A stretch of DNA of 64,000 nucleotides, taken from positions 682,001-746,000 of the forward strand of contig NC_090602.1 of assembly GCF_000497125.1 (NCBI RefSeq). The letters are read 5' to 3'. Numbering within the stretch: position 1 is the stretch's first letter; the number at the start of each line of letters is the position of its first letter. Below, in pieces: positions 9,851 through 38,049 of the stretch. The position numbers were made by a program, and so were the translations under genes. Source of the stretch: Spironucleus salmonicida (Eukaryota). The notes under the pieces are model-generated. The model saw only the letters and a program-made list of their open reading frames with translations, did no database searches and was not told where the DNA came from.

Positions 9851-11497
9851 TCAAAGATCGTCGCTTAGGAGCATATTCTTGATTGCGGCTTTTGGCCTGG
9901 ATTTCAAAAGCTACTTGTGTTTCAAAATGGTGTAAATGATTAATGCAATCATTACTAAGGATACATTAAGTCCAAAGATAAAAATTTTCTTTTTTAGCCC
10001 TTAGTAATTCTCACTATAGTTTGAGGCAGAGTTCAGGGTGAAATCATTATCGTCATTTCGGAACGAAAAGCTGACGGCCGACTTCGACCTGTAGAGCTGG
10101 GCAAGTTTTGAGATGCATGCCAAATCCGAGCAGTAGACACACACCTCCTCCTGCTGGGTAGAGTAGCGCATCGCCTGCGAGAGCTGGTAGTCGTCAAAGG
10201 TGACAGTGAATGTGATTTCCGTCTCGTTCACGTACGGGCAGTGCTGGGAGCCTTCGTTCGCAGTGAATGTGCCGCAAATCGCGTCGCTGCGATACGTTCC
10301 GAAAACCCCCACCCAGCACGTGCTCCTAACGTCCGTGACCCTGACGGTAGAGTACAGCAAGAGGTTGCTGCCAGCGTCGTAAAAGTAGTAGTGCATCTAG
10401 ATTTCTAGCCGCGAGAGGTCGTATGTCTGCAGCCGCGAGAGCACCCCGGAGCACACACCGCCGTCCGCGCGGTCATCGCAAATAATGTTTCGGTTGATGA
10501 CCTAGAACGAGAAGCTCGTCTCGGAGAAGATAATGTTCTCCAGGTTTTCGCCGGTGGTCCTGTCAACGAACTCGTACCGTGCGGTGAAGCCGGTGCTGGT
10601 AGCTAGATAGGTTTCGTCCAGCTCCTTCGCGTTCGGCACGGGGTCGGCGGTAAGCGTGAACCGCTGCGCCCAGATGATGAACTGCGGGTCCTAGAACATT
10701 GTCGGCAGGGACTCGCTCTCCATGGAGTTGATGAGCACGGTTTGAACAACCGAGACACCCTCCGTCTCGAGTTTGAGGTAGAGCTTTATGTCCTCGTAGA
10801 AGTTCTGGATGTACTGCGAAAAGTCGTAGTCGAACGTTACCTCCACAAGATACCCGACGACCGTTTCTGTTATAATGGTATTCCCGTCCTCGTCGACAAG
10901 ATTTATGTCAATAACGTCCTCCGTTCCATCAATGCGGGTGAGCTTAATGGAGTACTCTGAAAAATCTACCCCAAACTCGGGGCACTCGACGGTGGCGTAG
11001 ATCTAGAGCTTCGCGCTCTTCGACGCCCAGAACATGTGCGAGCGCGTCGCATCGAAGCACTCCGCGAACTGGGCGTGCGCGATGAGGATCTTCCCGATTG
11101 GCAGCGACGTGGCCCGCGTCAGAGACTTCAACTGGACCTGCACGGCCGCTGTCTGCTAGATGAAGTCGCACTGCGTGTCGTTCCCGATAAGGGGGCAGTC
11201 GTAGCAGAGCTCCTTGGTGCGCTGGTAGTCGAAGTTCTGGAACTCGCCCCGGATCGTGTAGTCGGGCATGTTAGAGACCTGAATGTCCATGTAGACACCT
11301 GGCGGTAGCTGGGCGCAGTCTGGGTCGAATTCCATGTCGAATTCCACACAAAGCTGGCCACGGTCGATATTGGCCACCAGAACGCTGTTGCGCCTGTAGC
11401 AATTCTCCAAGACTCTAGGTGGGTACTCCCTTTGCTCGTTTGCTAGGATTTGCTCGGTCAGAATCATGAGTGCCGGCTGAAACAGTGCGACTATCAT
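9851..11497 (-). CDS. Type I membrane protein of unknown family, 548 aa, IR2 left copy
   Basis: Hydrophobic N-terminus, scattered Cys, C-terminal TM plus basic tail; TAG/TAA read-through joins the track ORFs. Confidence 0.85.
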
Positions 11498-12940
11498 TTT
11501 TTAGATAGTGCTAAACGATTGTCTGTATCCAGAGTGAATATAATACAATTATGGGGTCGCAAATTTTCTATGGCAAAATATTTTGAAAATGTAAAAAGTT
11601 GCAGGATTTCAGGCCTAAAGCAGCATCGTAAAATTAATTAAAATTATACAGCAGAAATGCACATTCCATTTAATGATGTTGGTAAAATATCTTCAATATC
11701 GCGTTAAAGTGGAAAAGCGTGATGCAGTGGCGGTTCGGTGAATATACTAATGTGGGTCAGATAAACCGAGTGCTCAAAAAGACATCATGCTGAGAATAGA
11801 TGTATAATAGTTAGGATATAATAAATAATATATCAAGATATTGGTATCGATTATTATATAATGGATAGTACATCGAACCATAAATGTATGAATGTCGTGC
11901 AATTGGAAAATATATACTGGCACTATCTCTATAAGACTCTGCATTTAGTCTTGCTATCGTATTAAAAGATTCGCAAATGCACAATGTAGCTTGTCTATAG
12001 TCTATTATCAAGCGTGCAAACTAATGAAATAGGTTATATTAATTATATAGCTAACTAATCTAAAACATTATAAGTTATATCTAAATTTGAAGTGCCATAT
12101 TTTGGATATAACTTTGTTCCTTAGCTATTAATTTTATAATAATAAATATGCGCATCGACAGATGTGGTATCATATTTATCTTGGTGCAATTTCTAGCATA
12201 TATCAAAAAATATCAAGTACAACTTATTAATAATCTAGGGTGGTGTTTCATTTTAGCTAATCGCTAACTTTTTAATTGAATGAAACTCCAAACCTTAGCG
12301 GACCAATAGAGAACCTGTTAGATAAGTTGGTTAAAATAAAATAGTATTAAGAAGTACATAATCAACTCGTTATTAATATCAAAAAATAACTCATTCTATA
12401 ATATCGAAATGTTTGCTATGATTGCACTAAAATATGTTCGCTAAGGATAAATTATATAATCGAAGCATTTACTAAGTAAGCTTTAGAATATAAGCTGTTA
12501 GTGGATATGATTTTATGAAATTGTACTTTACTGAATCATATTACTGCATAATATCACGGTAATACTTTCTTATAAACTTGCTACTCACTGAATACTTAAA
12601 ATAAACATAGAAGCAGTATTATGATAATATATTTTTGCTATTTCACTGCTTTATGTTATTTATAATATCACTATAGAGAAACTATTTTCACTGGTAGATT
12701 TTTAAAAGTTTACATTATATTAGGAAGAAATAATTAAGTTTCATGGTAATGGGCTAAGATAGCTAAATTAAGTTATATAACTATATAAGATACTAAAATT
12801 TTACTGACTATTTTTAGGGCATTGCACCTATCTCATTTGCTAATTTCTAAATATTTATTAAATACTACGAATCCGCCATGCTTTTAACTGTGTTATAACT
12901 TTACGTCAGCACCTCCATATTCATAGGTATGTAAAATACA

Positions 12941-13150
12941 TCACTACTACAATAAGCTCTGCACTACGGCAACGCCCTGGTCGGCGAAGTCGTACTCCTC
13001 GCCGTCAGAGAACTCCAGCGGCAGCACCTGCGAGAGGCTGCGCGTAACCAGGGGCGTGCTGATGGATGCCGATATGTACTCCAGCAGCTTGGCCTAGGAG
13101 CCCATCTTTGGGGGCAGCGAGGTGGAGGTCCGGTCCTGTGTCCCGCGCAT
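12941..13150 (-). CDS. Small protein (69 aa) of the same family as 5492-5716, IR2 left copy
   Basis: MRGTQDRTSTSLPPKMGSQAKLLEYISASISTPLVTRSLSQVLPLEFSDGEEYDFADQGVAVVQSLLQQ; high third-position GC. Confidence 0.7.
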
Positions 13151-13425
13151 TACTGATAGGGCGGGAACCACACTCGTATATACCCGAATATACTTATTTG
13201 TGTTTCAGACAGTTTTCCAGTTACACTATCACTCCAGTATCGTGGCAAATACTATACATACGGAAAACCGTGGCGGAAATGGTTGTCCGAGAAACCAGTT
13301 TCTGGAGGCGGAATTCAACTTAGTGGAAACTACATGTCTGGCGAGACATTGGCGCTGCGAGTTAAGAATGGTTGGCCTTTTTGCGAAATAGTTAATACTA
13401 GTGGTAACCAGCCGCCAACGGGGAC

Positions 13426-14931
13426 TCAGCGGCCCACGAACTGCATGAAAACCAGCACGGACACGGCCTGGAGTATCAGGACGACGAGGACTGGGACGTA
13501 GCTGGCCGCCAGGTACTGAGACTGGATGGTGATGGTGGTCAGGGCGCTCGTGAGCCCGGCTTGGTCTACGGAGAGGTAGAGCGCGGACACTGGGACGGCG
13601 TGGCCCCCGAAGTCCTCCACGCGGTTGCGGTTCAGCTGCCGCACGAGGTCATGGTATGTGTAGGCCCCGTAGAACTGCAGGTAGTCCTGGTGGATGTAGA
13701 AGGCGCTCTCGGAGAGCCCGTAGCGGTGGCACCCCGGCTCGAGTGTGAGCGTGGCCAGGAAGCCGACCTGGAGCGTGAACGCCGGGAGCGCGTGGAAGGT
13801 CAGGTGGAAGGCTAGGGTCTGCGGGTTCGTGTCCGTCGAGCACGCCAGGACCTCCAGGCGCCCGCCGAGCACAAGCAGCTCCCCGATGCCGTAGGCCACA
13901 ACGCGGGTGCCGGCTATGCGCAGGGCCTTCGAGACGGCGCCGAAGTCGACCCGGGCGGATGTCCTGACCGCGTGCCCGGCGCGCATCTGGGCCAGCAGGC
14001 GCTCGTACGCGGCGGTGCAGGCCCGGCGGCCCTTGGCGCTGGCAAGGTTCGCGCAGGTGGAGTAGAAGGTGAGGTTGCCCACGTACCCCTCCTGGGGCAG
14101 GATCGTGTTCGCGGTGCGGTATACCGCTCCTCCCGCGGCGGCCCTGAAGTGCAGCCGCATGGGCGAGTCCGCGCGCGGGACCTCACGCCCCACGTGCTGT
14201 ACGACGACGACCTGGTCCAGGAGGAAGGCCACGTCGACGCTCTCGAAGATGCTCGTCAGGCCCTGCTCCACGAACGCCCGGAAGCGGATGTTGAGTGCCT
14301 GCGACGCGTTGGCCACCCGGAACACCACCTCCACCGCGCCCTTGGCGTTCAGCCTCGTGACCACCTTCGCGGCCTCGAACTGCAGGCCGGCCTTGGCGGT
14401 GCAGGCCAGTCCCGCGCGGTTGAAGGGGAACTCCTGGTCGACGGCGCAGTCAAAGAAGGAGTCGGGCGTGAGGAGCACGCTGCCATCTACGTAGATCGCG
14501 GCCAGCGTGTAGTCGAACGCCCCGAAGAAGGCCGCGTTCTCCACGACGATAACCGCGGAAATATTGTACATAAGGCGGCTACAGGCCCTCACCTAGACCA
14601 GGCGCATCTGGTCCCGGAACTGGTCGCCTATCTCCAGGGCGGGGAGCAGGACCATCTCGGACTCGCCCCGGAGCTGGAAGACCAGGTACACCACGTCCAG
14701 CGGGTAGCTGCGCTCGATGCTGAAGCTGACCACGGTGCTGGCGCCGTTGATGACGTCCACGACGTCCGTGGTGAAGGAGGCGCCGGTGGCGGCGTCGAGC
14801 ATCAGCAGGGACTCCTGGTTGATGGCGAAGAAGCTGCAGGCAGGGTCGCCGCTCACGGTGTAGCTGACCTGGATGGACTTGCTGAGGTACGAGACGAAGG
14901 CGTGGTGCACGGTGACGCAGGCGAGGAGCAT
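13426..14931 (-). CDS. Hypothetical membrane-anchored protein, 501 aa, IR2 left copy
   Basis: MLLACVTVHHAF start, one in-frame TAG, very high GC3, C-terminal TM. Confidence 0.8.
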
Positions 14932-14981
14932 TCTGGAGTGGCCTGAAGGTATATTGATGGGTGCCAAAGTCCAAGATCGCG

Positions 14982-15266
14982 TCACTCCAGCAGGCCCCAG
15001 AACGCGCACGAGTCGAAGGCGGTGCTCTGGAACGGGTCTTCCTGCAGCTGCTGCGCGCTCTCCTGCTTCCCCCTGGTGGGCCGCGCCTGCGCCCGCCCGT
15101 GCTGCACCCAGTAGTCGTAGCACTGGCGCGGCGTCTTGCCCAGGGCCGCACCGACCTCGATCCAGCTCAGGCGCCTCGGCCCGCCGTCCAGCTGCCGGGC
15201 CACGAGCTGCAGCAGGTCGCGGACGTCCGCGGCGCCCCATCTCGTGTATGAGCGTATAATTGTCAT
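14982..15266 (-). CDS. Myb/SANT-like DNA-binding protein, 94 aa (N-terminus MTIIRS)
   Basis: YTRWGAADVRDLLQLV..LSWIEVGAALGKTPRQCYDYW matches Myb Trp spacing. Confidence 0.8.
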   Translation of the reverse strand: MTIIRSYTRWGAADVRDLLQLVARQLDGGPRRLSWIEVGAALGKTPRQCYDYWVQHGRAQARPTRGKQESAQQLQEDPFQSTAFDSCAFWGLLE

Positions 15267-16038
15267 TTTGAACCAATCAGAATTAAGACCAAACTGAGTA
15301 ATGCTGATAATTTGGATTATTACATTGCTAGCTTTCGCAAAACCAATTGCATACCATCTAAATATTAAACCAATTTGAAAATTTAAGTCATCGCCAATTT
15401 ATATTATAATAGTATAATATTAAAATTGGAAAAGACATTACAACCAAAACATCCGTCAATTAAGCAATCAAGTATTTGGCTAATATAGAATATTATATCA
15501 TAATATATAAAATTGATTTAAAACTAAATTTAAAAATATTTTGTCGCAATCGAAAATGCGTCTATGCAAACCCGCAAATGTGAGCGGCGCGGTGCCAAAT
15601 CGGCTGAATTATACTGAAGGGAAGGTCATATTTCTAGCAAGTTTGGTGATGCGAGTCGTTGGCGCGTGTCGAACAGCGCGTTTTGCACGGTTGCGGTGGG
15701 CGTATTTCTGTGAAAATCGCTGTCGCTTTCGCAAGTATTTTAACTTACATTATTATATCTTTATAATTATATAAATTATTTTACAGAAAAAACGTAAAGT
15801 TATTTTTGCTATATAATATATAATAATTAAATTATTTATTTTTATTTCTATTCAACGTTCCCAAGTAAGTACTTTCACAGTGCACTAGTCACCGAAACTG
15901 CTGTTTCTTTCAACAGGTTATCTCGTAAAATCCTGGTGTGCACCCAATTTTTGCCTAATCAAATAATTCGTAGTAACGGTTACCAAACTAGTATTGCTGG
16001 TTCTAGAGCGTATACTCATTCCTGCTCAACTTTCGCGG

Positions 16039-16392
16039 TCATGGCGATTTCCTCAGTTTTTTGTGTATATTAGAAGGAAGAATTTGATGTTTAGTATAAT
16101 TATATGGTAATATCCAGGTAATTAATACAGGGTTTCCAGTGTAGTTTTTTAGGTGGTGGGTTGGTGATTCATAGAAATGGAATTTGCTGTCTTTGCAGGT
16201 GGATTTTCCAAAGAGAATTGCTTCTAAAGTTTTGTGTATTTATTGATACGTTAATTTGTATAATGAAAAATTGGTTTAATGATGAGGTGGTGAAAAGGTT
16301 AATTTTCGACAATACAGGTCAATTAGAGACTGTGTAGATGTAATTTCAGCTTAGTTTTTAGTAGTTATCAGAATCATTTAAGTAAGTTTCAT
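16039..16392 (-). CDS. Possible hypothetical protein, 117 aa
   Basis: Open table-6 frame only; no motif. Confidence 0.25.
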
Positions 16393-16506
16393 ATATTGTA
16401 GATGATTCAAAGGAATTTAAGTAATAGTAAATTTTACATTTTTAAATATATAAATAGTTCAATAAATATATTTATTAAATATAATAAAAATTAATGTATA
16501 AGGCGA

Positions 16507-17379
16507 TCATTTCTTGGATTTTCTAATGAAGTAGTAGGCCAGGCCACCACCGACAGCTCCTACTACCACTAAAGTGGCGATAATTATGCCTGCAATAGCG
16601 CCTCCGCCAAGCTTGTTTCCTGACTCAGCTGATCCTGGTTTTATGCATAACCCACCAAACGCCTGGTAGCCTTGTACGCAGAGTGTGCATTTCTTGTCAG
16701 TAGTCATAGTAAAGCCGGTTAGGCACAAACCACATCCAGATTTAGCTTCATTACAGGTGGCGCATCCTTGCTGATTACTACACATACACTCCGAGGTGGC
16801 AGTAGCATTACAAGCAGTTGGTACTCCTTCAAGGCAATATTATTCGGCTTCCAAATTATCGCATTATTTAGTGCACTTTCCTTCGATAGTTAGAACTGGG
16901 TTTGTATCATCTGTACCACAAGCTCCACAGATATCAACGGAAGCACACATGGAACAGTTAGGACCGCATGGCTTGCAGAATTTCACTGATAAGTCACAGT
17001 ATCCTTTATTAGCATCAGAACAATCGCTCAGTTCAGTGCAAGCTTTCTCACAGATTCTCGTGCTAGTATCTAGAACAAATCCCGCTTTGCAAGAAGTACA
17101 TTTCTTTGCTTCAGTCTAGCAGGTAATGCAGTTTCTATCACAGACAGTGCATTTTCCTTCGGATGTGAGGTAATATCCTGCCAAGCAATTTGTACATTTC
17201 CCGTCCGCGCAAGACAGGCAGCCTGTACTTTGCGTATTGACCACACAGTTGCAGCCTTGGTCTTTGGTAATACTATCATCACATAGCTTGCAATCTACTA
17301 CGTCACTGGCAGTAGCCGGGCAAAAAGTACCAACAAGGCATTTATTATCAAAACCACCACACTTACCAGCCGCTGCCAT
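16507..17379 (-). CDS. Cysteine-rich membrane protein (CXXC-rich, VSP/CRMP-like), 290 aa
   Basis: Many CXXC motifs, TM GGGAIAGIIIATLVVVGAVGGGLAYYF, tail RKSKK; paralog of 40603-41493. Confidence 0.9.
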
Positions 17380-18594
17380 TATTGAAGTTCCATTGTTTTT
17401 AATATTAACAATATTTGGATAATATATAATTTAGAACTTTGATCAATTGTGTATTATCTTTATAATACAAATACTAAAATAAATATATTTATTATATCCA
17501 ATTGGCGACTCATTTTAGTTTTTCCAGTTCTCAGGTATCAAATTTTACTTATGCAATTATTGGTCTAGCCTTAATATAATTATTATACAACTTATCAAAA
17601 TGAGATTACCGATATTTGCTACCAATGAGCAAGTATCAATCCAAACTATATTTTGAAGCTGATTTACTAGCGAGTTAGGGTTGTATGATGGGGAGTTTAA
17701 TCGAAGTAATACTGAGGCTAATTGTACCTATGCAGCAAATTGATGTTTAGTACAGAATACTATTTATAATTTGTCGCAATTTAATGAGCTCCTTACAGAC
17801 CTACTTAATTTCCACGTCAGGAAAAGTTTAAATCACCAGTATACGCCTGAAATATTCCATCTATCTAATTTTCGGAGCTCTACACGGCTAACATGCGGAT
17901 AAAATTGATCGAAGTAGTTTTATCTGCGCCGCATTAAATTGCGCACCACCAGCCTTAAAACTACCATTTTTCCAAATCAACCTACAATGCTGTAATTTAC
18001 CAGCCAACTATTGCATACGCCCAAATTACCATACTAAGGCTCCCTAACTAGCTTCCAACCTACTAACCCCACAAATCCTCCTCGCAAGCCATACCGCCGT
18101 ATTGAACAATATATATTGCGCTATCTCAATACGGTATCTGAATATATCCGCTGATTCATTTATATGTTCTACCGATTTTTCCCTTCCACTTATCCTTTTC
18201 TTATTTTTACAATAAAATTAATATTTTATATAAACTTACCTAAATCCCTCCCTCGTTCGCTCCATCAGATTCATTTTAGAAGTTCGTTATTCCAATTCCT
18301 TTCTTCCTTCCTTCTTTTATGTATCCTTACTTACCGTATAAAATTAATAGTATTATACGATTATGTAGATAAAATTTTATTCTGACAATTTTTTGTTGAA
18401 CACCATATTTAGGTTAATAAGTTCATATGAACATAAAGTTTATGTTCATATTGTAATTAATAAATAAATATAATTTATTAAACTCACAGTCAGTAATATT
18501 ACAAGTATAGTAACCTATTCTATTTATTTACAGATTTAGATTTAATTTACTGTTATACTGTTTTAAAGAAAATAATATGATGATTTACTTTATT

Positions 18595-19890
18595 TCACTA
18601 CAATTACCTCGATGTTTACAATAATGGAGGTACTATTCCTATCTATTCGTTCTAAAACAGACTTTATATGTCTGGTTAAATTATTTTTGGCTTTTTGACT
18701 AAATAAATTGTCAAAACAATAACTAAAATAACTAAGATAATAACTAATATTCCAAAAGCAACATTCAAGGCATTCGATGAGGAAAGATTACCATTTGAAC
18801 ACAATCCATCAGAATTTAGTTAATATCCTTATGAACATTACTCACAATTTTTACCAGAGTAAGCTACATCACAAGTACATTTTTCTGCTAAACACCCTCC
18901 ATGACTGTTACATTAAAACTATCTACAGCTAATAGAACAGTTAGGTAACATAAATCCTGAGCAGTTACATAGTTAATATTAAGTATTATAAGTTTTAAAA
19001 TTAGCATAAAAAGTACTTAAGAACTAGCTTTTATAGTTTAAACAAATAGGAGTATTAAGTGTAACTTCTATAGTTTCATCTGAGAGTAAGCATAATTTGT
19101 TAGGAACGGGAATATCGGTACTGGTAAAAATATCAGTGGAAAAAGCATCTAAAAAACTTTAAGGTAAATTACTGGTTTAAACAAACTTATCGATAGTTTA
19201 CGAAATTGAATAGCCTGTATTAATTTTTGCTAGATTAACAGATATCTATGAGTTTGAATTTACTAAAATATTCATAAACGTTCCAAATAAATTAGTATTA
19301 CAAGTACTTTCTCCACTAATTATTACTTCAGAGGCTATAATGTTACTGCTTAATATATTGAAATTTTAACTACAACTGATTTAATAGTAAATAGCTAGAT
19401 CCTAAATTTATGTGTTAACGGCATTAAGAATAATGCTTATATTGTCTTTATAGAACCCAGAAAATCTAACTAGAAATTCTTTCATTTAAGTATTGAACAG
19501 TGACCCGAATAATGTATAACCTAGAGAACTAATAGTAGGATTATAATTTATATTGCTTGTGATGAACAATCCATTAAACTTACATTCAATAACTTAGCTA
19601 GATACGAGCATTACTTGTGATTACGTAGATGAACCTTAAACATAAATAGTAACATTTTCCATTGTAGTGTTAGTCATTTACTAAATTAGAGATTAGAATA
19701 AATCGTTAATTTTTAACTATATCGAGATATTCTTCAAGTTTGAATTTGTTAGCGATAAAAATATTTACATATCAGTTATAAACGTAACATTCTACAATAT
19801 AATCTTATCAGCAGTGCATGCCGCTGTGACTGTAACAACTTCATCTCTACCCATCTAGCAGGCGCTAATTTACAGTAGGATCGCAAGCAT
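18595..19890 (-). CDS. Type I membrane protein with a membrane-proximal EGF-like Cys domain, 431 aa
   Basis: MLAILLQISAC signal-like start; CNSHGGCLAEKCTCDVAYSGKNCEQC; TM VAFGILVIILVILVIVLTIYLV; missing from the track because of many TAA/TAG. Confidence 0.8.
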
Positions 19891-19992
19891 TTTTCAACCT
19901 ATATACGATTTTATATATAATCTCTATTATTTTATTTTTAGTATATCTTTTCAATATATAACTCTTCACTTGTACACTAGAACTCTACGAAC

Positions 19993-22095
19993 TCAAATAA
20001 TTTCGTTAATTCGCGTCTCCACGTACGCCTCTACCTCATTTTCATCGATTTTTCCACTAACGACACGCTCCAGAATGCGCTCACATTCCCTTAAAATTGC
20101 ATCCTGATTTTCTTCGAAGCAGCGCAGCGCGAGCTGCTTGTGACCATCGTAGCGCAGCATCAGCCCCTTATACGCCCCATCCAGCACGCGGTTGAACAGC
20201 TTTTCGCTTGAGTTCGTCTCGAAGGAAAGCTCCTCGATGCGGCTCAAATTTGGCGAATTTTGGACCTAAATTTTGATCTGCGGCGTAAATAGCTAGCTCT
20301 CAAACGAATTTACGAGGGACTTAGAGCTTACCAAATTGTCTTGCAGAGTTGAAATCTGCTTCTTTTGGGCCTTAATTTGGCTGGATATTTTGTCCATTTA
20401 GACGTAGATTTGGTCTTTCTAAAGTGTTATTTTTGACTTCAGAAGGCGCTGCTTCGATTGTATTTCAAGCGGCTTCGAGCTGCTTTTTGGACGCTTCTGA
20501 GCTGATTTCGTGGCCGGAATTTTGAAGGAATCCTCGTAGTTCATGGGTGTTTTAGCCCGCTTGCGTCCCGGTGCCGGCGTTCCGCAATATCGGTTCTTGT
20601 ACGCATGAAAATTTTCGCTTTTGGACATTTTCCTCTCCATTCCGGCAACGTTTTAGGCTTCGATTTTGCGCGATTTGAGTTGCTTTTTCTCGTCGATTTT
20701 TGACATTATCAAGTTCCCACTCTCTAAAATTTGTTACTGTATTTTCAAATTGATTTTGATTTTCCACTCCACGAAAACACGTAGAATAAAATCGATTTTT
20801 TCGTCATAAAAAACGTTTTTAAGTGTAAAATTTCGCATTAAAATGAAAATCAGCGGATGCGGCTCCCCAGATTACAAGAATTCGAGGTCCTTGACGTTTT
20901 CTGCAAAATTAACAAGAAACTGAGCCACTGTTGCGCCCTGCGGCTGGAAATAGTCCGGAGCGATGCATTCCAGAACGAGTTTTTGCGCATCGTTCAAGTA
21001 TGTCAAATTTTGATACATTTCAAAAATATACTTATTAAGTGCAATTTAAATTGGAATATGAATTCCAATTCCATTTTCCATTCCCTCAAAATCGAAATTT
21101 TCGCTATAGAAATTTTGAAATTCTGTGAGTTTCGGGAAAAATTTGCTGTCGTAACGGAAATCGTTCCCCTGAAGATCCAGATTCTGCAGGTAGAGATCGT
21201 CCGCTAGACAGCGAATTTCGCTCAAAAACTCGTTTTTGAAGCCGTTCGCACTTAAATCCACGTAAACTAGACCCCCCAACGCCCTGCGGGCTATAAATTC
21301 TGGCTCTTTTTGAGCATTTTTGTCCGTCCGCAAACTGCGCTCCCAGAGCAGTTTTTCGCGTTGGTTTTGGTGCAGTGTCAGGAGCGAACTCAGCAGTTTC
21401 CCGGCGGTCAGCGAGTCGAGGTTCGAGTCCTAGAGAGCGAAGATTTTTAGCTGAAATTGTCCGAAAACGGACTCGAAGGCCCGCGCTGCGAGATCTGCGC
21501 TGCCAAGGTTGTTGAAAACGAGCATCTGCAGCGCACCGAACCTGCGCGCGTTGATTTTGACGCCCTCGAGCAGCTTTTCGAAGATCTTCGGCGGGTGCAC
21601 GTCGTAGAACGCCAGGACCTGCAGCTTTTTCATGTTCGGCAGCTCGGTGGCGATGGTTTGCAGGAGCTTGAAAAGCGCCTTTCTGGCCAGCAGCGCATCG
21701 TTTTGGTCCGATTTCTTATTGTTTATAATGTTCTTGGCGTTGTCTTTTGGGAACATGTTCTAATTCGTCGATTTTGGCGTCAGCCGGTCGAAAATGGTCG
21801 TTTTTGACGGCCGTGGGGGCGGCAGCGGGTCGCAGTGGCCGATTTGCTCGAGGTAGGTCGTGTGAGCAGATGGGTACGTGAAATGGAGCGCATTCTCATT
21901 GTTCGCAATCGTGATCTCTGTGATGTGCTCGGCTGCTTGCGCGAGCGCCTGCGCCGCCGCCAGAATGTGGTGCGGCTTGAAAAACGGCAGCTGGATGCGA
22001 AACCGGTTAGAATGCGCATGCTGCTCCAGTGTAGCGCCGAAAGTTAGTATGTGGTGCTGATTCTGGGCGTGAATCAGCGCCTCCTGCAAGTTCAT
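19993..22095 (-). CDS. Leucine-rich repeat plus coiled-coil protein, CEP78-like (tentative), 700 aa
   Basis: One frame joins five track ORFs; LLWERSLR, YVDLSAN and DDLYLQNLDLQGN recall CEP78 LRR motifs; paralog of 33300-35279. Confidence 0.7.
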
Positions 22096-22219
22096 TTTTT
22101 AAATTTTACAAAATCATATTATATAAAATATTATATAATAATGGTTAAATTTTAGTTTTTTCACTTCAGAAAATCTGATTATTATACAATCAGATAATGG
22201 TGCGTTCTTTCCGCAATAT

Positions 22220-22858
22220 ATGGAAGTGTTTTCTGACACTCCTGCCCCAAATGCGTACCATGCAGAAGACGTAAAAATCACGATAAAAAGCGAGCCTGCG
22301 TACTCTATGAGGTCACGCCACGAACAAAAGATCAAAAATGGGGCCCCTGGCCCCGGACAGTACACCCCATCGTCAGAAATGCTAAACAAGCGCGAACCAT
22401 CTTATTCAATGTCCGGGAGGCACGCAGATCTCAAGAATAAGTAAGTTGTCCCCGGGCCTGGGGCTTACAGCTTCGATGACTCGAAAATAACAACTAACCC
22501 GCCGAATTATTCGATGAGCGGAAGGCACACAATCATCGACAAGAAAAATGTACCTGGACCTGGAACCTACAAGGCAGAGGACTATAAGGTATTTGGTGCC
22601 GGACCCAAGCAATCGCTCGCGGGAAGACACTCGATTATCGACAAGAAGAATGTTCCTGGGCCTGGAGCCTACAACCAGGAGGACAAGTTTATTTCAAAAA
22701 GATCAGCTGAGTACAGCTTTAAGTCTAGACATTCAATTTCCGATAAAAATAAAGTACCTGGGCCCGGAGCTTACAATACTGCCTTGAGTACGCTTAGCTC
22801 CAAAAGCTGCAGCATGAGCGGGAGGCAGACGTACAAGGCTGGTATTTTCAGAAAGTGA
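22220..22858 (+). CDS. SHIPPO/ODF3-like PGPGAY-repeat (axonemal) protein, 212 aa
   Basis: About six repeats of (V)PGPG(A/T/Q)Y with YS(M/F)xxRH. Confidence 0.9.
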
Positions 22859-23138
22859 GACATGTTAATTTTTTAATCTACTAAAGGGGTAGATTTTGCT
22901 AAACGTAATTGGATTTGATTATTCTAATGATTTTGTATGTGGGTCTATATTTATAAGCTCAGATGTGCAATAAATTGTGTATTAAAGATATTTTATTACT
23001 ATTATTTTGATTTTGATTGTATTTAAATTAGATTTGTAAATTTGTTCAGTAGTTTAGGTTAAATAAATAATACCTTAATTGAAATGATTATGATATTCAT
23101 TATCTTAAGTGCATTAATATTTGCTTAAAAAGATAAGA

Positions 23139-23423
23139 ATGGAATCGAAACGCTCATACACGAGATGGGGCGCCGCGGACGTCCGCGACCTGCTGCAGCT
23201 CGTGGCCCGGCAGCTGGACGGCGGGCCGAGGCGCCTGAGCTGGATCGAGGTCGGTGCGGCCCTGGGCAAGACGCCGCGCCAGTGCTACGACTACTGGGTG
23301 CAGCACGGGCGGGCGCAGGCGCGGCCCACCAGGGGGAAGCAGGAGAGCGCGCAGCAGCTGCAGGAAGACCCGTTCCAGAGCACCGCCTTCGACTCGTGCG
23401 CGTTCTGGGGCCTGCTGGAGTGA
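23139..23423 (+). CDS. Myb/SANT-like protein, 94 aa (N-terminus MESKRS), IR2 right copy
   Basis: Mirror of 14982-15266 except the first codons. Confidence 0.8.
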   Translation: MESKRSYTRWGAADVRDLLQLVARQLDGGPRRLSWIEVGAALGKTPRQCYDYWVQHGRAQARPTRGKQESAQQLQEDPFQSTAFDSCAFWGLLE

Positions 23424-23473
23424 CGCGATCTTGGACTTTGGCACCCATCAATATACCTTCAGGCCACTCCAGA

Positions 23474-24979
23474 ATGCTCCTCGCCTGCGTCACCGTGCAC
23501 CACGCCTTCGTCTCGTACCTCAGCAAGTCCATCCAGGTCAGCTACACCGTGAGCGGCGACCCTGCCTGCAGCTTCTTCGCCATCAACCAGGAGTCCCTGC
23601 TGATGCTCGACGCCGCCACCGGCGCCTCCTTCACCACGGACGTCGTGGACGTCATCAACGGCGCCAGCACCGTGGTCAGCTTCAGCATCGAGCGCAGCTA
23701 CCCGCTGGACGTGGTGTACCTGGTCTTCCAGCTCCGGGGCGAGTCCGAGATGGTCCTGCTCCCCGCCCTGGAGATAGGCGACCAGTTCCGGGACCAGATG
23801 CGCCTGGTCTAGGTGAGGGCCTGTAGCCGCCTTATGTACAATATTTCCGCGGTTATCGTCGTGGAGAACGCGGCCTTCTTCGGGGCGTTCGACTACACGC
23901 TGGCCGCGATCTACGTAGATGGCAGCGTGCTCCTCACGCCCGACTCCTTCTTTGACTGCGCCGTCGACCAGGAGTTCCCCTTCAACCGCGCGGGACTGGC
24001 CTGCACCGCCAAGGCCGGCCTGCAGTTCGAGGCCGCGAAGGTGGTCACGAGGCTGAACGCCAAGGGCGCGGTGGAGGTGGTATTCCGGGTGGCCAACGCG
24101 TCGCAGGCACTCAACATCCGCTTCCGGGCGTTCGTGGAGCAGGGCCTGACGAGCATCTTCGAGAGCGTCGACGTGGCCTTCCTCCTGGACCAGGTCGTCG
24201 TCGTACAGCACGTGGGGCGTGAGGTCCCGCGCGCGGACTCGCCCATGCGGCTGCACTTCAGGGCCGCCGCGGGAGGAGCGGTATACCGCACCGCGAACAC
24301 GATCCTGCCCCAGGAGGGGTACGTGGGCAACCTCACCTTCTACTCCACCTGCGCGAACCTTGCCAGCGCCAAGGGCCGCCGGGCCTGCACCGCCGCGTAC
24401 GAGCGCCTGCTGGCCCAGATGCGCGCCGGGCACGCGGTCAGGACATCCGCCCGGGTCGACTTCGGCGCCGTCTCGAAGGCCCTGCGCATAGCCGGCACCC
24501 GCGTTGTGGCCTACGGCATCGGGGAGCTGCTTGTGCTCGGCGGGCGCCTGGAGGTCCTGGCGTGCTCGACGGACACGAACCCGCAGACCCTAGCCTTCCA
24601 CCTGACCTTCCACGCGCTCCCGGCGTTCACGCTCCAGGTCGGCTTCCTGGCCACGCTCACACTCGAGCCGGGGTGCCACCGCTACGGGCTCTCCGAGAGC
24701 GCCTTCTACATCCACCAGGACTACCTGCAGTTCTACGGGGCCTACACCTACCATGACCTCGTGCGGCAGCTGAACCGCAACCGCGTGGAGGACTTCGGGG
24801 GCCACGCCGTCCCAGTGTCCGCGCTCTACCTCTCCGTAGACCAAGCCGGGCTCACGAGCGCCCTGACCACCATCACCATCCAGTCTCAGTACCTGGCGGC
24901 CAGCTACGTCCCAGTCCTCGTCGTCCTGATACTCCAGGCCGTGTCCGTGCTGGTTTTCATGCAGTTCGTGGGCCGCTGA
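23474..24979 (+). CDS. Hypothetical membrane-anchored protein, 501 aa, IR2 right copy
   Basis: Mirror of 13426-14931. Confidence 0.8.
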
Positions 24980-25254
24980 GTCCCCGTTGGCGGCTGGTTA
25001 CCACTAGTATTAACTATTTCGCAAAAAGGCCAACCATTCTTAACTCGCAGCGCCAATGTCTCGCCTGACATCTAGTTTCCACTAAGTTGAATTCCGCCTC
25101 CAGAAACTGGTTTCTCGCGCAATCATTTCCGCCACGGTTTTCCGTATGTATAGTATTTGCCACGATACTGGAGTGATAGTATAACTGGGAAACTGTCTGA
25201 AACACAAATAAGTATATTCTGGTATATACGATTGTGGTTCCCGCCCTATCAGTA

Positions 25255-25464
25255 ATGTGCGGGACACAGGACCGGACCTCCACCTCGCTGCCCCCAAAGA
25301 TGGGCTCCTAGGCCAAGCTGCTGGAGTACATATCGGCATCCATCAGCACGCCCCTGGTTACGCGCAGCCTCTCGCAGGTGCTGCCGCTGGAGTTCTCTGA
25401 CGGCGAGGAGTACGACTTCGCCGACCAGGGCGTTGCCGTAGTGCAGAGCTTATTGTAGTAGTGA
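25255..25464 (+). CDS. Small protein (69 aa), IR2 right copy (starts MCG)
   Basis: Mirror of 12941-13150; ends TAG TAG TGA. Confidence 0.7.
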
Positions 25465-26906
25465 TGTATTTTACATACCTATGAATATGGAGGTGCTGAC
25501 GTAAAGTTATAAAACAGTTAAAAGCATGGCGGATTCGTAGTATTTAATAAATATTTAGAAATTAGCAAATGAGATAGGTGCAATGCCCTAAAAATAGTCA
25601 GTAAAATTTTAGTATCTTATATAGTTATATAACTTAATTTAGCTATCTTAGCCCATTACCATGAAACTTAATTATTTCTTACTACTATAATGTAAACTTT
25701 TAAAAATCTACCAGTGAAAATAGGTTCTTTATAGTGATATTATAAATAACATAAAACACTGAAATAGCAAAAATATATTATTTAGTACTGCTTCTATGTT
25801 TATTTTGAGTATTCAGTGAGCAGCAAGTTTATAAGAAAGTATTACCGTGATATTATGCAGTAATATGATTCAGTAAAGTACAATTTCATAAAATCATATC
25901 CACTAACAGCTTATATTCTAAAGCTTACTTAGTAAATGCTTCGATTATATAATTTATCCTTAGCGAACATATTTTAGTGCAATCATAGCAAACATTTCGA
26001 TATTATAGAATGAGTTATTTTTTGATATTAATAACGAGTTGATTATGTACTTCTTAATACTATTTTATTTTAACCAACTTATCTAACAGGTTCTCTATTG
26101 GTCCGCTAAGGTTTGGAGTTTCATTCAATTAAAAAGTTAGCGATTAGCTAAAATGAAACACCACCCTAGATTATTAATAAGTTGTACTTGATATTTTTTG
26201 ATATATGCTAGAAATTGCACCAAGATAAATATGATACCACATCTGTCGATGCGCATATTTATTATTATAAAATTAATAGCTAAGGAACAAAGTTATATCC
26301 AAAATATGGCACTTCAAATTTAGATATAACTTATAATGTTTTAGATTAGTTAGCTATATAATTAATATAACCTATTTCATTAGTTTGCACGCTTGATAAT
26401 AGACTATAGACAAGCTACATTGTGCATTTGCGAATCTTTTAATACGATAGCAAGACTAAATGCAGAGTCTTATAGAGATAGTGCCAGTATATATTTTCCA
26501 ATTGCACGACATTCATACATTTATGGTTCGATGTACTATCCATTATATAATAATCGATACCAATATCTTGATATATTATTTATTATATCCTAACTATTAT
26601 ACATCTATTCTCAGCATGATGTCTTTTTGAGCACTCGGTTTATCTGACCCACATTAGTATATTCACCGAATCACCACTGCATCACGCTTTTCCACTTTAA
26701 CGCGATATTGAAGATATTTTACCAACATCATTAAATGGAATGTGCATTTCTGCTGTATAATTTTAATTAATTTTACGATGCTGCTTTAGGCCTGAAATCC
26801 TGCAACTTTTTACATTTTCAAAATATTTTGCCATAGAAAATTTGCGACCCCATAATTGTATTATATTCACTCTGGATACAGACAATCGTTTAGCACTATC
26901 TAAAAA

Positions 26907-28553
26907 ATGATAGTCGCACTGTTTCAGCCGGCACTCATGATTCTGACCGAGCAAATCCTAGCAAACGAGCAAAGGGAGTACCCACCTAGAGTCTTGGAGA
27001 ATTGCTACAGGCGCAACAGCGTTCTGGTGGCCAATATCGACCGTGGCCAGCTTTGTGTGGAATTCGACATGGAATTCGACCCAGACTGCGCCCAGCTACC
27101 GCCAGGTGTCTACATGGACATTCAGGTCTCTAACATGCCCGACTACACGATCCGGGGCGAGTTCCAGAACTTCGACTACCAGCGCACCAAGGAGCTCTGC
27201 TACGACTGCCCCCTTATCGGGAACGACACGCAGTGCGACTTCATCTAGCAGACAGCGGCCGTGCAGGTCCAGTTGAAGTCTCTGACGCGGGCCACGTCGC
27301 TGCCAATCGGGAAGATCCTCATCGCGCACGCCCAGTTCGCGGAGTGCTTCGATGCGACGCGCTCGCACATGTTCTGGGCGTCGAAGAGCGCGAAGCTCTA
27401 GATCTACGCCACCGTCGAGTGCCCCGAGTTTGGGGTAGATTTTTCAGAGTACTCCATTAAGCTCACCCGCATTGATGGAACGGAGGACGTTATTGACATA
27501 AATCTTGTCGACGAGGACGGGAATACCATTATAACAGAAACGGTCGTCGGGTATCTTGTGGAGGTAACGTTCGACTACGACTTTTCGCAGTACATCCAGA
27601 ACTTCTACGAGGACATAAAGCTCTACCTCAAACTCGAGACGGAGGGTGTCTCGGTTGTTCAAACCGTGCTCATCAACTCCATGGAGAGCGAGTCCCTGCC
27701 GACAATGTTCTAGGACCCGCAGTTCATCATCTGGGCGCAGCGGTTCACGCTTACCGCCGACCCCGTGCCGAACGCGAAGGAGCTGGACGAAACCTATCTA
27801 GCTACCAGCACCGGCTTCACCGCACGGTACGAGTTCGTTGACAGGACCACCGGCGAAAACCTGGAGAACATTATCTTCTCCGAGACGAGCTTCTCGTTCT
27901 AGGTCATCAACCGAAACATTATTTGCGATGACCGCGCGGACGGCGGTGTGTGCTCCGGGGTGCTCTCGCGGCTGCAGACATACGACCTCTCGCGGCTAGA
28001 AATCTAGATGCACTACTACTTTTACGACGCTGGCAGCAACCTCTTGCTGTACTCTACCGTCAGGGTCACGGACGTTAGGAGCACGTGCTGGGTGGGGGTT
28101 TTCGGAACGTATCGCAGCGACGCGATTTGCGGCACATTCACTGCGAACGAAGGCTCCCAGCACTGCCCGTACGTGAACGAGACGGAAATCACATTCACTG
28201 TCACCTTTGACGACTACCAGCTCTCGCAGGCGATGCGCTACTCTACCCAGCAGGAGGAGGTGTGCGTCTACTGCTCGGATTTGGCATGCATCTCAAAACT
28301 TGCCCAGCTCTACAGGTCGAAGTCGGCCGTCAGCTTTTCGTTCCGAAATGACGATAATGATTTCACCCTGAACTCTGCCTCAAACTATAGTGAGAATTAC
28401 TAAGGGCTAAAAAAGAAAATTTTTATTGTAGGTCTTATATCGAGTTTAGCTATGGTTGCAATCACAATATATACTATTCTAAAACACAAACAATTGCTAA
28501 GGGTAAAACCAAAGGCCGCGGTCAAGGGACTCGGCCCATATGATGATCTTTGA
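26907..28553 (+). CDS. Type I membrane protein, 548 aa, IR2 right copy with a diverged TM/tail
   Basis: Mirror of 9851-11497; last 42 or so codons diverged but colinear. Confidence 0.85.
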
Positions 28554-31581: not shown

Positions 31582-32667
31582 ATGCTAACTCCTCAAATTA
31601 ATATTCCAGCATTATCTCTTTCTAACCTTCTTACTTACCTTGATTAACTAACTGCCCAACCTGCTTATTTTAATAACAAGATAGAATTTTATCACCCCAT
31701 TATCATATTCTTATAAACAAAAAATCAGAGATTTGATATCATAAAAGATACAATACATGAATAAATTATGATTATTAAATAAGCACCTATCGATCAAATT
31801 GATATTGATTCTTTTATAGGACTAAAATGGATTTCGCTAAGTGAGAATAGATCTGATATCTTCCATTATTATGCTCTGGTAGAATAAAGTTGTAATTTAA
31901 CAAAAAATATAAGAATCTCTAATGATTATACGATAATAACCAAACCGTTTAAAATATTCTGTAACCTTTTGCACCTGTCTGCTCCTAATTAAAAATTTAA
32001 TAACATTAACTCTGCCACATCGCCAGCTAGCAAGATTATTGTTAATTTTCTATATATTAAATATCTATCAAATCCTAGTAGAAATTTTCGTGGAAAAGTT
32101 CTGACGCTTCCATTTATAGATAACAAATAAAATGAATTCTTTAAAGATCATGATTTTAATAAAGCATTGAACTAGCTATCGGAGCAGCAAAATATTATGA
32201 TAGATTTGATTCGATCCTATCTTGATTCACGAATCTAGAATAATGCATTAGAACATAATCTTTTTCACGATGATGAAAATATATGGATCACACTCGATGA
32301 TTCTCGATTTAGTATTGTTTCAAATACTAAAAAAATAGTACCTGGCCAGAAAATAGAGAATGAAAAAATGATATCTGCAGTATCAGAATAGAAACTTTAG
32401 CTACTGTAAAGACAGTGCTTCCAGCACGTTGAGATCCGGCGCCTGGGAAACCAGTACCTACCTTCTGCTGGGAAGACGGAGTGCGCCTGTCTGGCGGTGA
32501 TGTTCCCTAAATAGAACTTAGAAATTATCGGCAGGTTCATCGATGGTGAGGATGGTGATACAGAGAAAGCAATAATCAAAGCGAGGCTGGGTAAGCTGTG
32601 GGGGTGCGAGTACGAGGTAGTGATCAGTAAAACTCCTGGGACGAAGAAGTGGGAGTTACAGCAGTGA
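31582..32667 (+). CDS. Hypothetical protein, 361 aa; 3' end lies in IR3
   Basis: Uninterrupted table-6 frame ending CAG TGA. Confidence 0.7.
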
Positions 32668-32841
32668 AGCAAAAGGGCTCAACGCATATCTCGGTGCCCA
32701 AATCTGATCAGAAGAATAAATACATCCCGAGTGAATTAAGGTTTGCGGCACTAACGTCGGCTGGGCGAGTGGACCGACCAAGTGCAGAAACTGGGTTTGC
32801 ATATATGGATAATATACAATTTTAAAACCATACCCTTTCAA

Positions 32842-33285
32842 ATGCAGAGGCAGCTCAATAAACTGTTCGAGAAAATCTTCGACGCGTTTGATACTTCTGG
32901 TGATGGGCGTATTAACGTGCGAGAGCTCTGGCGCTTTCTCCGAGAGTTGGGTGTGAACATGACTACTATGGATATCGTAAACATCATTACGCTGTTCGAC
33001 GAGAATAACGACGGCCTGCTCGATAAGCCGGAGTTCAACCACTTCATGTACGTGGCAATGAACTCGAACCCGGAGAACCTCCCGGCCATGCTATTCTTTG
33101 CCGCTGACACTGACCATTCTGGGACGGTGGACTCGCGCGAGTTCATTAAGATAATGATGAAGCTCGGATGTAAGCTACCAAAGGAGGAGCTCCTCCACCT
33201 TCTCCTGCAGTTCACAGACTCTCCAGATCAGTCTATTAGTTACCTGCGTTTCGTGGACCTTGTTACCGAGTTCATTAAAGACTGA
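32842..33285 (+). CDS. Calmodulin-like EF-hand protein, 147 aa
   Basis: EF loops DTSGDGRINVRE, DENNDGLLDKPE, DTDHSGTVDSRE; fourth loop degenerate. Confidence 0.9.
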   Translation: MQRQLNKLFEKIFDAFDTSGDGRINVRELWRFLRELGVNMTTMDIVNIITLFDENNDGLLDKPEFNHFMYVAMNSNPENLPAMLFFAADTDHSGTVDSREFIKIMMKLGCKLPKEELLHLLLQFTDSPDQSISYLRFVDLVTEFIKD

Positions 33286-33299
33286 GTGACCATTCCAAA

Positions 33300-35279: not shown

Positions 35280-35307
35280 AATATATATTATTTACATACA
35301 TATATTT

Positions 35308-35532
35308 GTGACGTGATCCGGCATCAAAAAGGTCCTAATTATCGCCAAACCCTAGTGAGATCTCGCTAAGGCCAGACATGCCGAGCCGCAAGCAACGCAG
35401 CAGGGACAACAGAGCTTCCTATGATAGGGTGGTGAGGCATATTCTAAGAACACCTGTCGTTTAGGTGGTAAGGAGGGCTCTAGGGATCTTCTCGTGACCG
35501 AATGCTATCTAAATGGATTTTGTAAAGTGCAT
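35308..35532 (-). pseudogene. Duplicated first 75 codons of the 33300 LRR gene
   Basis: Mirror of 33300-33524; homology stops at the arm edge. Confidence 0.7.
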
Positions 35533-35546
35533 TTTGGAATGGTCAC

Positions 35547-38018: not shown

Positions 38019-38049
38019 GGTATTCGATCACTTTCCACTGCCGCTCCGA

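What the first reader, a model, noticed from the sequence alone, without database searches (positions are those of the whole stretch)
28427..28553. Identity breaks off inside a gene, but diverged colinear homology continues: a gene-conversion boundary
Seen: the two 548-aa membrane protein genes are near-identical up to 9978/28426. They then read FGLNVSLVMIALIIYTILKHKQLLKSRPKAAIKNMLLSDDL versus VGLISSLAMVAITIYTILKHKQLLRVKPKAAVKGLGPYDDL, with equal length and many synonymous changes. Inference: the duplication is old and the arm interior is homogenised by conversion. This also argues against an assembly artefact. The result is one ectodomain with two alternative TM/cytoplasmic tails.
Basis: partly seen in the sequence, partly recalled or inferred. 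Interest (0 to 1): 0.8.

Follow-up and report, generated by a model that had tools for sequence, protein, structure and literature searches.

The report
Gene-conversion edge inside a duplicated membrane-protein gene
Two inverted copies of a surface-protein gene in the fish parasite Spironucleus salmonicida are kept identical up to the membrane anchor but have anciently diverged anchors and tails, a clean but ordinary example of gene conversion between duplicated genes.

Summary
The window is Spironucleus salmonicida nuclear DNA, where TAA and TAG encode Q.

- **The two genes.** Genes at 9851-11497 (-) and 26907-28553 (+) differ by 1 synonymous base in codons 1-506. Codons 507-548 differ at 53 of 124 bases. 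There pS is 0.89, which is saturated, and pN is 0.28. The two tails are equal in length and need no gaps.
- **The repeat.** The genes lie at the outer ends of a 5.3-kb inverted repeat with a 7.9-kb spacer.
- **Not an assembly artefact.** Contigs built independently from public reads fork exactly at both repeat edges. They also show all 27 arm-to-arm differences.
- **More than one homogenising event.** 21 of the 27 differences sit in two patches that are 5-8% diverged, within arms otherwise about 99.9% identical.
- **GC follows the arms.** GC3 is 0.78 in the identical part and 0.31-0.48 in the tails. GC rises at all 16 repeat edges in the window, including a step inside a DHHC gene.
- **No third donor found.** The two tails are each other's best match among 29 family proteins.

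Best reading: an old paralog pair whose ectodomain is homogenised by repeated, probably GC-biased, arm-to-arm conversion. This is a new member of a known kind, of moderate to low interest.

The parts
9851..11497 (-). Gene A: 548-aa type-I membrane protein (P0002), read with TAA/TAG = Q
   Evidence: An entry from the 2014 assembly with the same tail (P0003) is named Spironucleus salmonicida SS50377_11483.
26907..28553 (+). Gene B: 548-aa paralog (P0001). Residues 1-506 are identical to gene A.
28427..28553 (+). Tail B: codons 507-548 plus the stop. Covers most of the transmembrane helix and a 23-aa cytoplasmic tail ending YDDL.
   Evidence: The model has a helix at residues 498-527.
9851..9977 (-). 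Tail A: codons 507-548 plus the stop. Colinear with tail B, 26 of 42 residues identical, ending SDDL. Q529 is TAG here and CAA in tail B.
9978..15255 (.). Arm A of the inverted repeat (5278 nt): gene A codons 1-506, AT-rich intergenic DNA, a small expressed 69-aa ORF, and gene 2.
23150..28426 (.). Arm B of the inverted repeat. It has 27 differences from arm A.
15256..23149 (.). Unique 7894-nt spacer between the arms. It holds a cysteine-rich membrane-protein ORF (16507-17379, -) and a 700-aa ORF (19993-22095, -).
12583..12724 (.). Diverged patch 1 inside the arms: 11 differences in 142 nt (7.75%). Its partner in arm B is 25681-25821.
   Evidence: Both versions are seen as separate contigs (records 5, 6, 11, 12).
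13147..13339 (.). Diverged patch 2 inside the arms: 10 differences in 193 nt (5.18%). Its partner in arm B is 25066-25258.
13426..15240 (-). Gene 2 in arm A: GC-rich ORF (GC3 0.86) with a C-terminal hydrophobic segment. No Pfam family, and not related to gene 1's family.
   Evidence: Contigs that behave as RNA cover 13225-15160.
23165..24979 (+). Gene 2 in arm B. The open frame runs upstream to 22937, outside the repeat.
28410..28426 (+). A/T-only run (A6 G A4 T5 AT) encoding KKKIFI. It is the last 17 identical bases before the edge.
   Evidence: Read from the alignment.

Best explanation
Genes A and B are an old pair of paralogs from a diplomonad-specific family of roughly 550-aa type-I membrane proteins with tandem beta-sandwich ectodomains. 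They sit at the outer ends of a 5.3-kb inverted repeat.

The two arms exchange sequence by intrachromosomal (arm-to-arm) gene conversion. This happened more than once and probably with a GC bias. As a result, everything from about 95 nt upstream of gene 2's transcript to codon 506 of gene 1 is near-identical.

The converted domain stops two residues into the transmembrane helix. Beyond that point the copies have diverged to synonymous saturation while staying under purifying selection. Such divergence itself blocks homologous exchange, so the edge is self-locking.

The outcome is one ectodomain on two different membrane anchors and cytoplasmic tails. Both forms are present in contigs of a run that behaves as RNA.

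Shown: the identity step, the saturation, the mosaic of differences, the GC step, and the reality of both junctions. Inferred: conversion as the mechanism, its GC bias, the self-locking of the edge, and any functional difference between the tails.
For: **Identity step.** Codons 1-506 have pS 0.003 and pN 0. Codons 507-548 have pS 0.887 and pN 0.278. The tail similarity has z about 11, with 0 of 500 shuffles reaching it.

**Only edge of its kind in the window.** Of 7 edge pairs tested across the four inverted repeats, only this one has residual homology. It gives z 12.1 at 150 nt, with 0 of 200 shuffles reaching it. The other six give z from -0.8 to 2.8.

**Mosaic of differences.** The 27 arm differences are distributed as follows:
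- 3 in 2605 nt
- 11 in 142 nt
- 1 in 422 nt
- 10 in 193 nt
- 2 in 1916 nt

Under uniform placement, the probability of an identical run of 1591 nt or more is 0.002. The probability of 11 or more differences in 150 nt is 0 of 20000 simulations. Within noncoding DNA alone the values are 5e-05 and 1e-04. This gives at least two age layers inside the arms, plus the far older tails.

**GC signature.**
- GC3 is 385/494 in the gene body, against 20/42 (tail A) and 13/42 (tail B). Fisher p is 5e-05 and 7e-10.
- The GARP/FYMINK amino-acid ratio is 0.64 for the A/B ectodomain, against 0.33-0.40 for the S. salmonicida paralogs P0005 and P0006.
- GC is higher inside than outside at 16 of 16 repeat-edge sides. 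Arms are 0.55 GC and the rest of the window 0.35.
- In a DHHC gene, GC3 is 82/256 outside a neighbouring repeat and 186/256 inside it (p 2e-20). The step falls inside the Pfam DHHC stretch.

**Reality of both junctions.** In DNA-run contigs the arm sequence continues in two ways at 9978 and in two ways at 15255. All 27 arm differences appear as alternative letters (tables 3, 4, 7, 8, compared).

**No third donor.** None of the 34 hits among 1.84 billion representatives matches the tail alone. A search with tail A among proteins of 301-959 aa returned only the A/B cluster. A and B tails are reciprocal best matches among 29 family proteins.

**Published context.** 19.2% of this genome is duplicated at 2 kb or more and 95% identity or more. 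Duplicated regions average 44.7% GC against 30.7% elsewhere, and gene conversion was suggested for surface-protein families (PMC9509377, passages seen).
Against: - No significant homology remains after the stop codons (z 1.6 or less; 40 of 60 mismatches). None remains at the inner edge (z 1.5-1.9). The duplication cannot be shown to have once been larger than the gene.
- The diverged patches are only 5-8% apart while the tails are saturated. A simple scheme of one old duplication plus conversion needs an intermediate homogenising event.
- The AT-rich intergenic part of the arms (about 28-37% GC) has not become GC-rich. A uniform GC-biased process would be expected to raise it.
- The GC3 drop begins about 12 codons before the identity edge. 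It falls in a membrane-anchor region whose composition could differ for other reasons.
- There is no outgroup. Neither the direction of changes nor the tree test could be done.
Confidence: 0.7

Rival explanations
1. One recent event rather than ongoing conversion. A single inverted segmental duplication, or one long conversion or break-induced replication tract, copied 5.3 kb from one locus over most of a pre-existing old paralog. One end resolved in the homologous region near the membrane anchor.
For: Young-looking inverted duplications whose edges cut genes do exist in the same window. The left arm of the 3542-8145 palindrome holds only a 255-aa 3' fragment of the DHHC gene, with no homology past the edge. 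No homology is detectable at the inner edge of the repeat studied here.
Against: A single recent event predicts few, evenly scattered differences. Instead, 21 of 27 lie in two patches that are 5-8% diverged. The GC3 excess is confined to the arms, including the step inside the DHHC gene. This implies a long-acting process after duplication.
Confidence: 0.2
2. One tail was imported recently from a third paralog by recombination, so the divergent block does not date the A/B duplication.
For: The family has further S. salmonicida members and gene fragments on other chromosomes (P0005-P0010). Unannotated fragments could not be searched because no whole genome is held.
Against: No protein in the representative library matches either tail alone: 34 hits, none confined to residues 500-548. 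Tail A finds only the A/B cluster. The other paralogs' tails score 60 or less, against 123 for A versus B.
Confidence: 0.05
3. Assembly or polishing artefact. Either the arms were made identical by consensus polishing, or the repeat is a chimeric fold-back.
For: Long-read assemblies polished with short reads can homogenise repeats. The 2014 assembly's protein differs from copy A at one residue, T315S.
Against: Contigs built from short-read runs fork at exactly 9978 and 15255 into both continuations. They carry all 27 arm differences as alternatives. The only other variant listed in the arm is one low-depth 1-nt deletion at 9990. The per-contig depths are 10.4 (tail A side), 13 (tail B side) and 21.5 (shared arm) in run X1 (table 8). 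The tool warns that depth is no copy number, so this is weak support only. The two copies have different unique neighbours: DHHC on one side and MFS on the other.
Confidence: 0.02

Closest known systems
Identical surface-protein gene pairs in inverted orientation in Giardia (G. muris: seven VSP pairs, head-to-head or tail-to-tail, with intervening genes; PMC7641422, passages seen)
   Same: A diplomonad. Paired membrane-protein genes sit in inverted orientation around a spacer that carries other genes. The pairs are near-identical, and recombination or gene conversion is invoked.
   Different: The protein here is not a VSP or CRMP-type cysteine-rich protein: no Pfam hit, including the VSP family. 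The passages I read do not describe an identity edge inside the ORF with diverged homology continuing beyond it.
Duplicated regions of the S. salmonicida reference genome (PMC9509377, passages seen)
   Same: Same organism and assembly. 19.2% of the genome lies in duplicates of 2 kb or more at 95% identity or more, with raised GC (44.7% against 30.7%). Gene conversion is suggested for the CRMP families.
   Different: The passages seen do not mention inverted or palindromic arrangement ('inverted' and 'palindrom' each occur 0 times). They do not describe edges inside genes or GC-biased conversion. The supplements were closed and may list these regions.
Classical partial-gene conversion between duplicated genes, for example the human fetal globin pair HBG1/HBG2, where a homogenised 5' part abuts a diverged 3' part at a simple-sequence tract (recalled, not checked here)
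   Same: An identity block ends inside the gene, and older colinear divergence continues beyond it. A simple A/T run lies at the edge here (28410-28426).
   Different: That pair is a direct tandem rather than an inverted repeat, and its edge lies in an intron. Here the edge is in coding sequence, in an almost intron-free genome.
Large palindromes with arm-to-arm gene conversion (primate Y-chromosome palindromes) and plastid inverted repeats whose edges fall inside genes (both recalled, not checked here)
   Same: Kilobase-scale arms at 99.9% identity or more around a unique spacer. Sharp arm edges, and edges that can cut genes.
   Different: At plastid repeat edges the second copy is usually a truncated fragment, like the DHHC fragment at 3541-4308 here. 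It is not a full-length paralog with an old, selected, colinear tail.

Membership tests
Interlocus (ectopic) gene conversion / concerted evolution of paralogs | A near-identical tract flanked by homologous but much older sequence in the same pair | tested here: met
   pS is 0.003 in codons 1-506 and 0.887 in codons 507-548. The tail homology has z about 11.
Interlocus (ectopic) gene conversion / concerted evolution of paralogs | Mosaic, non-uniform distribution of differences (several tracts) | tested here: met
   21 of 27 differences lie in two patches totalling 335 nt of the 5278-nt arm. Permutation p is 0.002 or less.
Interlocus (ectopic) gene conversion / concerted evolution of paralogs | Phylogeny: converted parts group by genome, unconverted flanks group by orthology | not testable with these tools
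   No whole genome is held. No protein above 41% identity exists outside the A/B cluster, and none from another Spironucleus species.
Interlocus (ectopic) gene conversion / concerted evolution of paralogs | GC enrichment co-extensive with the converted tract (GC-biased conversion; an accessory feature, not a defining one) | tested here: met
   GC3 is 0.78 in the body against 0.48 and 0.31 in the tails. 16 of 16 edge sides are GC-richer inside, and there is a GC3 step inside the DHHC gene. The AT-rich intergenic part of the arm is an exception.
Large inverted repeat / palindrome with arm-to-arm exchange | Two inverted arms around a unique spacer, both real in independent data | tested here: met
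   Arms 9978-15255 and 23150-28426 with a 7894-nt spacer. Read-derived contigs fork at both edges.
Giardia VSP / Spironucleus CRMP cysteine-rich surface proteins | Cysteine-rich CXXC-repeat ectodomain recognisable by the VSP-type profile | tested here: not met
   P0001 and P0002 have 0 Pfam families at E up to 1. The model is a string of beta-sandwich domains whose best fold matches are FN3/Ig-type ectodomains.
Unnamed diplomonad family of about 550-aa single-pass membrane proteins | Full-length homology, conserved cysteine columns and a C-terminal anchor | tested here: met
   P0005 matches at 35% identity over residues 11-542, with E 1.6e-112. There are 34 hits, from S. salmonicida, Hexamita inflata and one unnamed contig. 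Invariant cysteines are C172, C340 and C349 in 22 sequences.

The most novel reading that the evidence does not exclude
Concerted evolution stands in for alternative splicing. In a genome with almost no introns, selection holds the conversion edge at the membrane. One continually homogenised ectodomain is therefore made with two anciently distinct anchors and cytoplasmic tails that route it differently. Tail B ends in YDDL, which fits the recalled YxxPhi sorting-signal pattern; tail A has SDDL.

In addition, the step-like GC rise at every repeat edge would mean that GC-biased arm-to-arm conversion, not codon selection, builds the GC-rich fifth of this parasite's genome.
Probability: 0.15. Interest if true: 0.6.

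Novelty: new member of a known kind. Interest (0 to 1): 0.33.

Why it matters
This is a textbook-clean natural experiment. Inside single genes, the part lying in a repeat arm is identical between copies and GC3-rich. The part just outside is anciently diverged, or unique, and AT-rich.

That makes two things directly testable in a diplomonad: arm-to-arm gene conversion and its GC bias. These organisms have rare or cryptic sex, and about a fifth of this genome is duplicated. The result also warns annotators that identical paralogs here can hide much older duplications.

Functionally, it gives a matched pair of proteins that differ only in anchor and tail. Such a pair is convenient for studying membrane-protein sorting in this fish parasite. 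The phenomenon itself, partial gene conversion between paralogs in a palindrome, is well known.

Tried and rejected
- **Whole-genome search of the window's own assembly:** Third copies of the tails or patches at the DNA level were therefore not searched.
- **Run listing:** no RNA holder listed. X5 and X6 are only guessed to be RNA.
- **Tail A in X6:** no contig of X6 covers tail A. This is a part without cover and is not used as evidence.
- **Pfam:** no family for genes A or B, for gene 2, or for the 69-aa ORF.
- **Rfam:** no match in the window at gathering scores.
- **Gene 2 against gene 1's family:** hhalign probability 0.06, so unrelated.
- **Foldseek against the PDB:** only generic multi-domain FN3/Ig ectodomains with low TM-scores of 0.11-0.19. 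No specific family assignment was made.
- **Homology past the stop codons and at the inner edge:** looked for and not significant.
- **Same tail-focused pattern in Hexamita inflata near-duplicates of the family:** not found. In 10 pairs, 0-2 of 2-21 amino-acid differences fall in the last 45 residues. The S. salmonicida pair has 16 of 16 there.
- **Word-index search with the whole protein:** returned only the protein's own cluster. The index-free search was needed to see the family.
- **Literature on GC-biased conversion:** 'GC-biased gene conversion' plus 'Spironucleus' gave 0 papers. 'Biased gene conversion' plus 'Giardia', 'GC content' and 'duplicated' gave 4 papers. I saw these as a listing only, and none is on diplomonads by title.
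- **Paper supplements:** closed. They may hold lists of duplicated regions.

Full report
**What the window is.** Under the bacterial code the two 548-codon frames are broken by in-frame TAG and TAA codons and end in TGA. Under NCBI table 6 both read through. At codon 529 one copy has TAG where the other has CAA, which directly supports TAG = Q. An exact look-up places both proteins on a 1.61-Mb contig. The cluster mate P0003, which has the same tail as copy A, is named Spironucleus salmonicida SS50377_11483. Neighbouring ORFs match this source: carbamate-kinase-type amino-acid kinase, ankyrin, DHHC, MFS, ABC transporter, TCP-1 and cysteine-rich membrane proteins.

**The observation.**
- Gene B (26907-28553, +) and gene A (9851-11497, -) differ at one synonymous base in the first 1520 bases. 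From 28427 (opposite 9977) they differ at 53 of the next 124 bases before the shared stop.
- In codons 507-548, 12 codons are identical, 14 differ synonymously and 16 non-synonymously. pS is 0.887, which is saturated, and pN is 0.278. In codons 1-506, pS is 0.003 and pN is 0.
- The tails need no gaps. Their similarity is far beyond chance, with 0 of 500 shuffles reaching it.
- After the stop codons no similarity remains (z 1.6 or less; 40 of 60 mismatches).

**Anatomy.** The genes are the outer ends of an inverted repeat. The arms are 9978-15255 and 23150-28426 and the spacer is 7894 nt. Each arm carries:
- gene 1 up to codon 506;
- AT-rich intergenic DNA;
- a small GC-rich 69-aa ORF;
- a second GC-rich ORF (gene 2) with a C-terminal hydrophobic segment.

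Both genes in an arm are transcribed away from the spacer. The inner edge lies about 95 nt upstream of where the RNA-like contigs of gene 2 end.

The window holds three more near-perfect inverted repeats of 5730, 2250 and 1083 nt. Of 7 edge pairs tested, only the one in the finding has residual homology beyond the edge. It gives z 12.1, while the other six range from -0.8 to 2.8.

**Is it real?** I laid contigs that others had built from public reads on arm A plus its flanks.
- In the two DNA-type runs the arm sequence continues in two ways at 9978: into tail A, and into a loose end that is the reverse complement of tail B.
- It also continues in two ways at 15255.
- The 26 'other letter' rows plus the 1-nt deletion at 12623 coincide with the 27 differences between the arms in the window. 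The only extra variant is a low-depth 1-nt deletion at 9990 in one run.
- In X1 the per-contig depths are 10.4 (tail A side), 13 (tail B side) and 21.5 (shared arm). The tool cautions that depth is not copy number, so I treat this as weak support.

The identity of the arms, their few differences and both junctions therefore do not depend on the long-read assembly.

Two runs from a second study are guessed to be RNA, and they behave as RNA:
- they have essentially no cover over the intergenic 11644-12867 that the DNA runs do cover;
- their contigs end in adapter sequence at 11490.

In X5, separate contigs carry tail A (9691-10007) and tail B. In X6 the gene body is joined to tail B.

**How it most likely works.** The tails show that the two genes separated long ago. 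The arms show that almost everything else was made identical recently, and not in one step.
- 21 of the 27 arm differences lie in two patches: 11 in 142 nt and 10 in 193 nt. The remaining 4943 nt carry 6 differences.
- Uniform placement is rejected, both across the whole arm and within noncoding DNA alone.
- That gives at least three age layers: saturated tails, patches 5-8% apart, and tracts about 0.1% apart. This is the mosaic expected from repeated arm-to-arm gene conversion.
- Once the tails had diverged this far, homologous exchange can no longer run into them, so the edge is self-locking. This step is inferred.

**A GC signature.**
- GC3 is 0.78 in codons 1-494, but 0.48 in tail A and 0.31 in tail B.
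- The ectodomain's amino-acid composition is shifted toward GC-rich codons relative to its S. salmonicida paralogs. The GARP/FYMINK ratio is 0.64 against 0.33-0.40.
- The pattern is general in the window. GC is higher inside than outside at all 16 repeat-edge sides, and the arms are 0.55 GC against 0.35 for the rest.
- In a DHHC palmitoyltransferase gene cut by another repeat edge, GC3 steps from 0.32 (82/256) to 0.73 (186/256). The step falls at the edge, inside the Pfam DHHC stretch.
- A duplication by itself cannot change base composition. A long-acting GC-biased conversion process between arms can.
- The published genome paper reports the genome-wide correlation (44.7% against 30.7% GC) and suggests gene conversion for the surface-protein families (PMC9509377, passages).
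- I found no paper pairing 'GC-biased gene conversion' with 'Spironucleus'.
- Against this reading, the AT-rich intergenic part of the arm has stayed AT-rich. The GC3 fall also begins about 12 codons before the identity edge.

**What the protein is.**
- It has no Pfam family.
- An index-free search found 34 relatives. These are S. salmonicida paralogs on other chromosomes (P0005 at 35% identity and P0006 at 41%, plus fragments), many Hexamita inflata proteins, and one unnamed contig.
- A 22-sequence alignment has conserved cysteine columns. The AlphaFold model has mean pLDDT 79.9. It is a chain of beta-sandwich domains followed by a helix at residues 498-527.
- The best fold matches are generic FN3/Ig-type ectodomains.
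- The identity edge at codon 507 is two residues into the hydrophobic segment.
- Tails A and B are reciprocal best matches among 29 family members, scoring 123 against 60 or less.
- No other protein matches either tail alone. Unannotated DNA could not be searched.
- In Hexamita inflata near-duplicates of the family, differences are not concentrated in the tails.

**Comparison with what is known.** The closest case in diplomonads is the identical VSP pairs of Giardia muris. They are arranged head-to-head or tail-to-tail around intervening genes (PMC7641422, passages). The closest in mechanism are classical partial gene conversions between duplicated genes, and palindromes with arm-to-arm conversion; both are recalled and were not checked here. 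This locus is a member of that kind in a new organism and protein family. Two tidy features stand out: an edge in coding sequence at the membrane boundary, and a within-gene GC step.

**Verdict.** Novelty is a new member of a known kind, and interest is moderate to low. The cross-strain or cross-species tree, the genome-wide test of the GC step, and any functional difference between the tails remain open.

Noticed in passing
window 3542-5791 / 5896-8150; DHHC gene 7379-8914 (-): A near-perfect palindrome (2 differences in 2250 nt, 104-nt centre) has its outer edge inside the DHHC domain of a palmitoyltransferase gene. The other arm holds only a 255-aa 3' fragment (3541-4308, +), with no homology past the edge. 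GC3 of the gene steps from 0.32 outside the arm to 0.73 inside it.
   Followed up: partly
all four inverted repeats in the window (3542-8145, 9978-28426, 32442-36390, 36757-53178): GC is higher inside than outside at all 16 arm-edge sides. Arms are 0.55 GC (28681 nt) and the rest is 0.35 (35319 nt). This looks like GC-biased conversion shaping the duplicated fraction of the genome.
   Followed up: partly
window 12877-13146 (and its partner in arm B): Contigs from the two RNA-like runs cover about 270 nt here at higher contig depth than the neighbouring genes. The stretch holds a GC-rich 69-aa ORF (12941-13150, -) with no Pfam family, and the window has no Rfam match.
   Followed up: partly
gene A codon 315 (about window 10553-10555): The 2014-assembly protein (P0003) has S where both copies in this assembly have T. 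No variant at that place is listed in the four runs laid. It is probably an error or a rare allele in the old assembly.
   Followed up: partly
window 36757-42486 / 47449-53178: A 5730-nt inverted repeat with 7 differences. Its outer edge falls at the 5' end of a cysteine-rich membrane-protein ORF, giving the two copies different N-terminal extensions. No residual homology lies beyond the edge.
   Followed up: no
window 11490 (gene A/B 5' end): The RNA-like contigs end with adapter sequence at 11490, 7 nt inside the annotated ATG at 11497. The transcript start, or the true start codon (a second ATG at codon 11), may differ from the longest ORF.
   Followed up: no
window 22937-23164 and 15241-15480: Upstream of gene 2 the open frame in arm B continues outside the repeat into a signal-peptide-like stretch. 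In arm A the frame is closed by TGA. The low-complexity first 100 or so residues of the ORF may not be coding.
   Followed up: no
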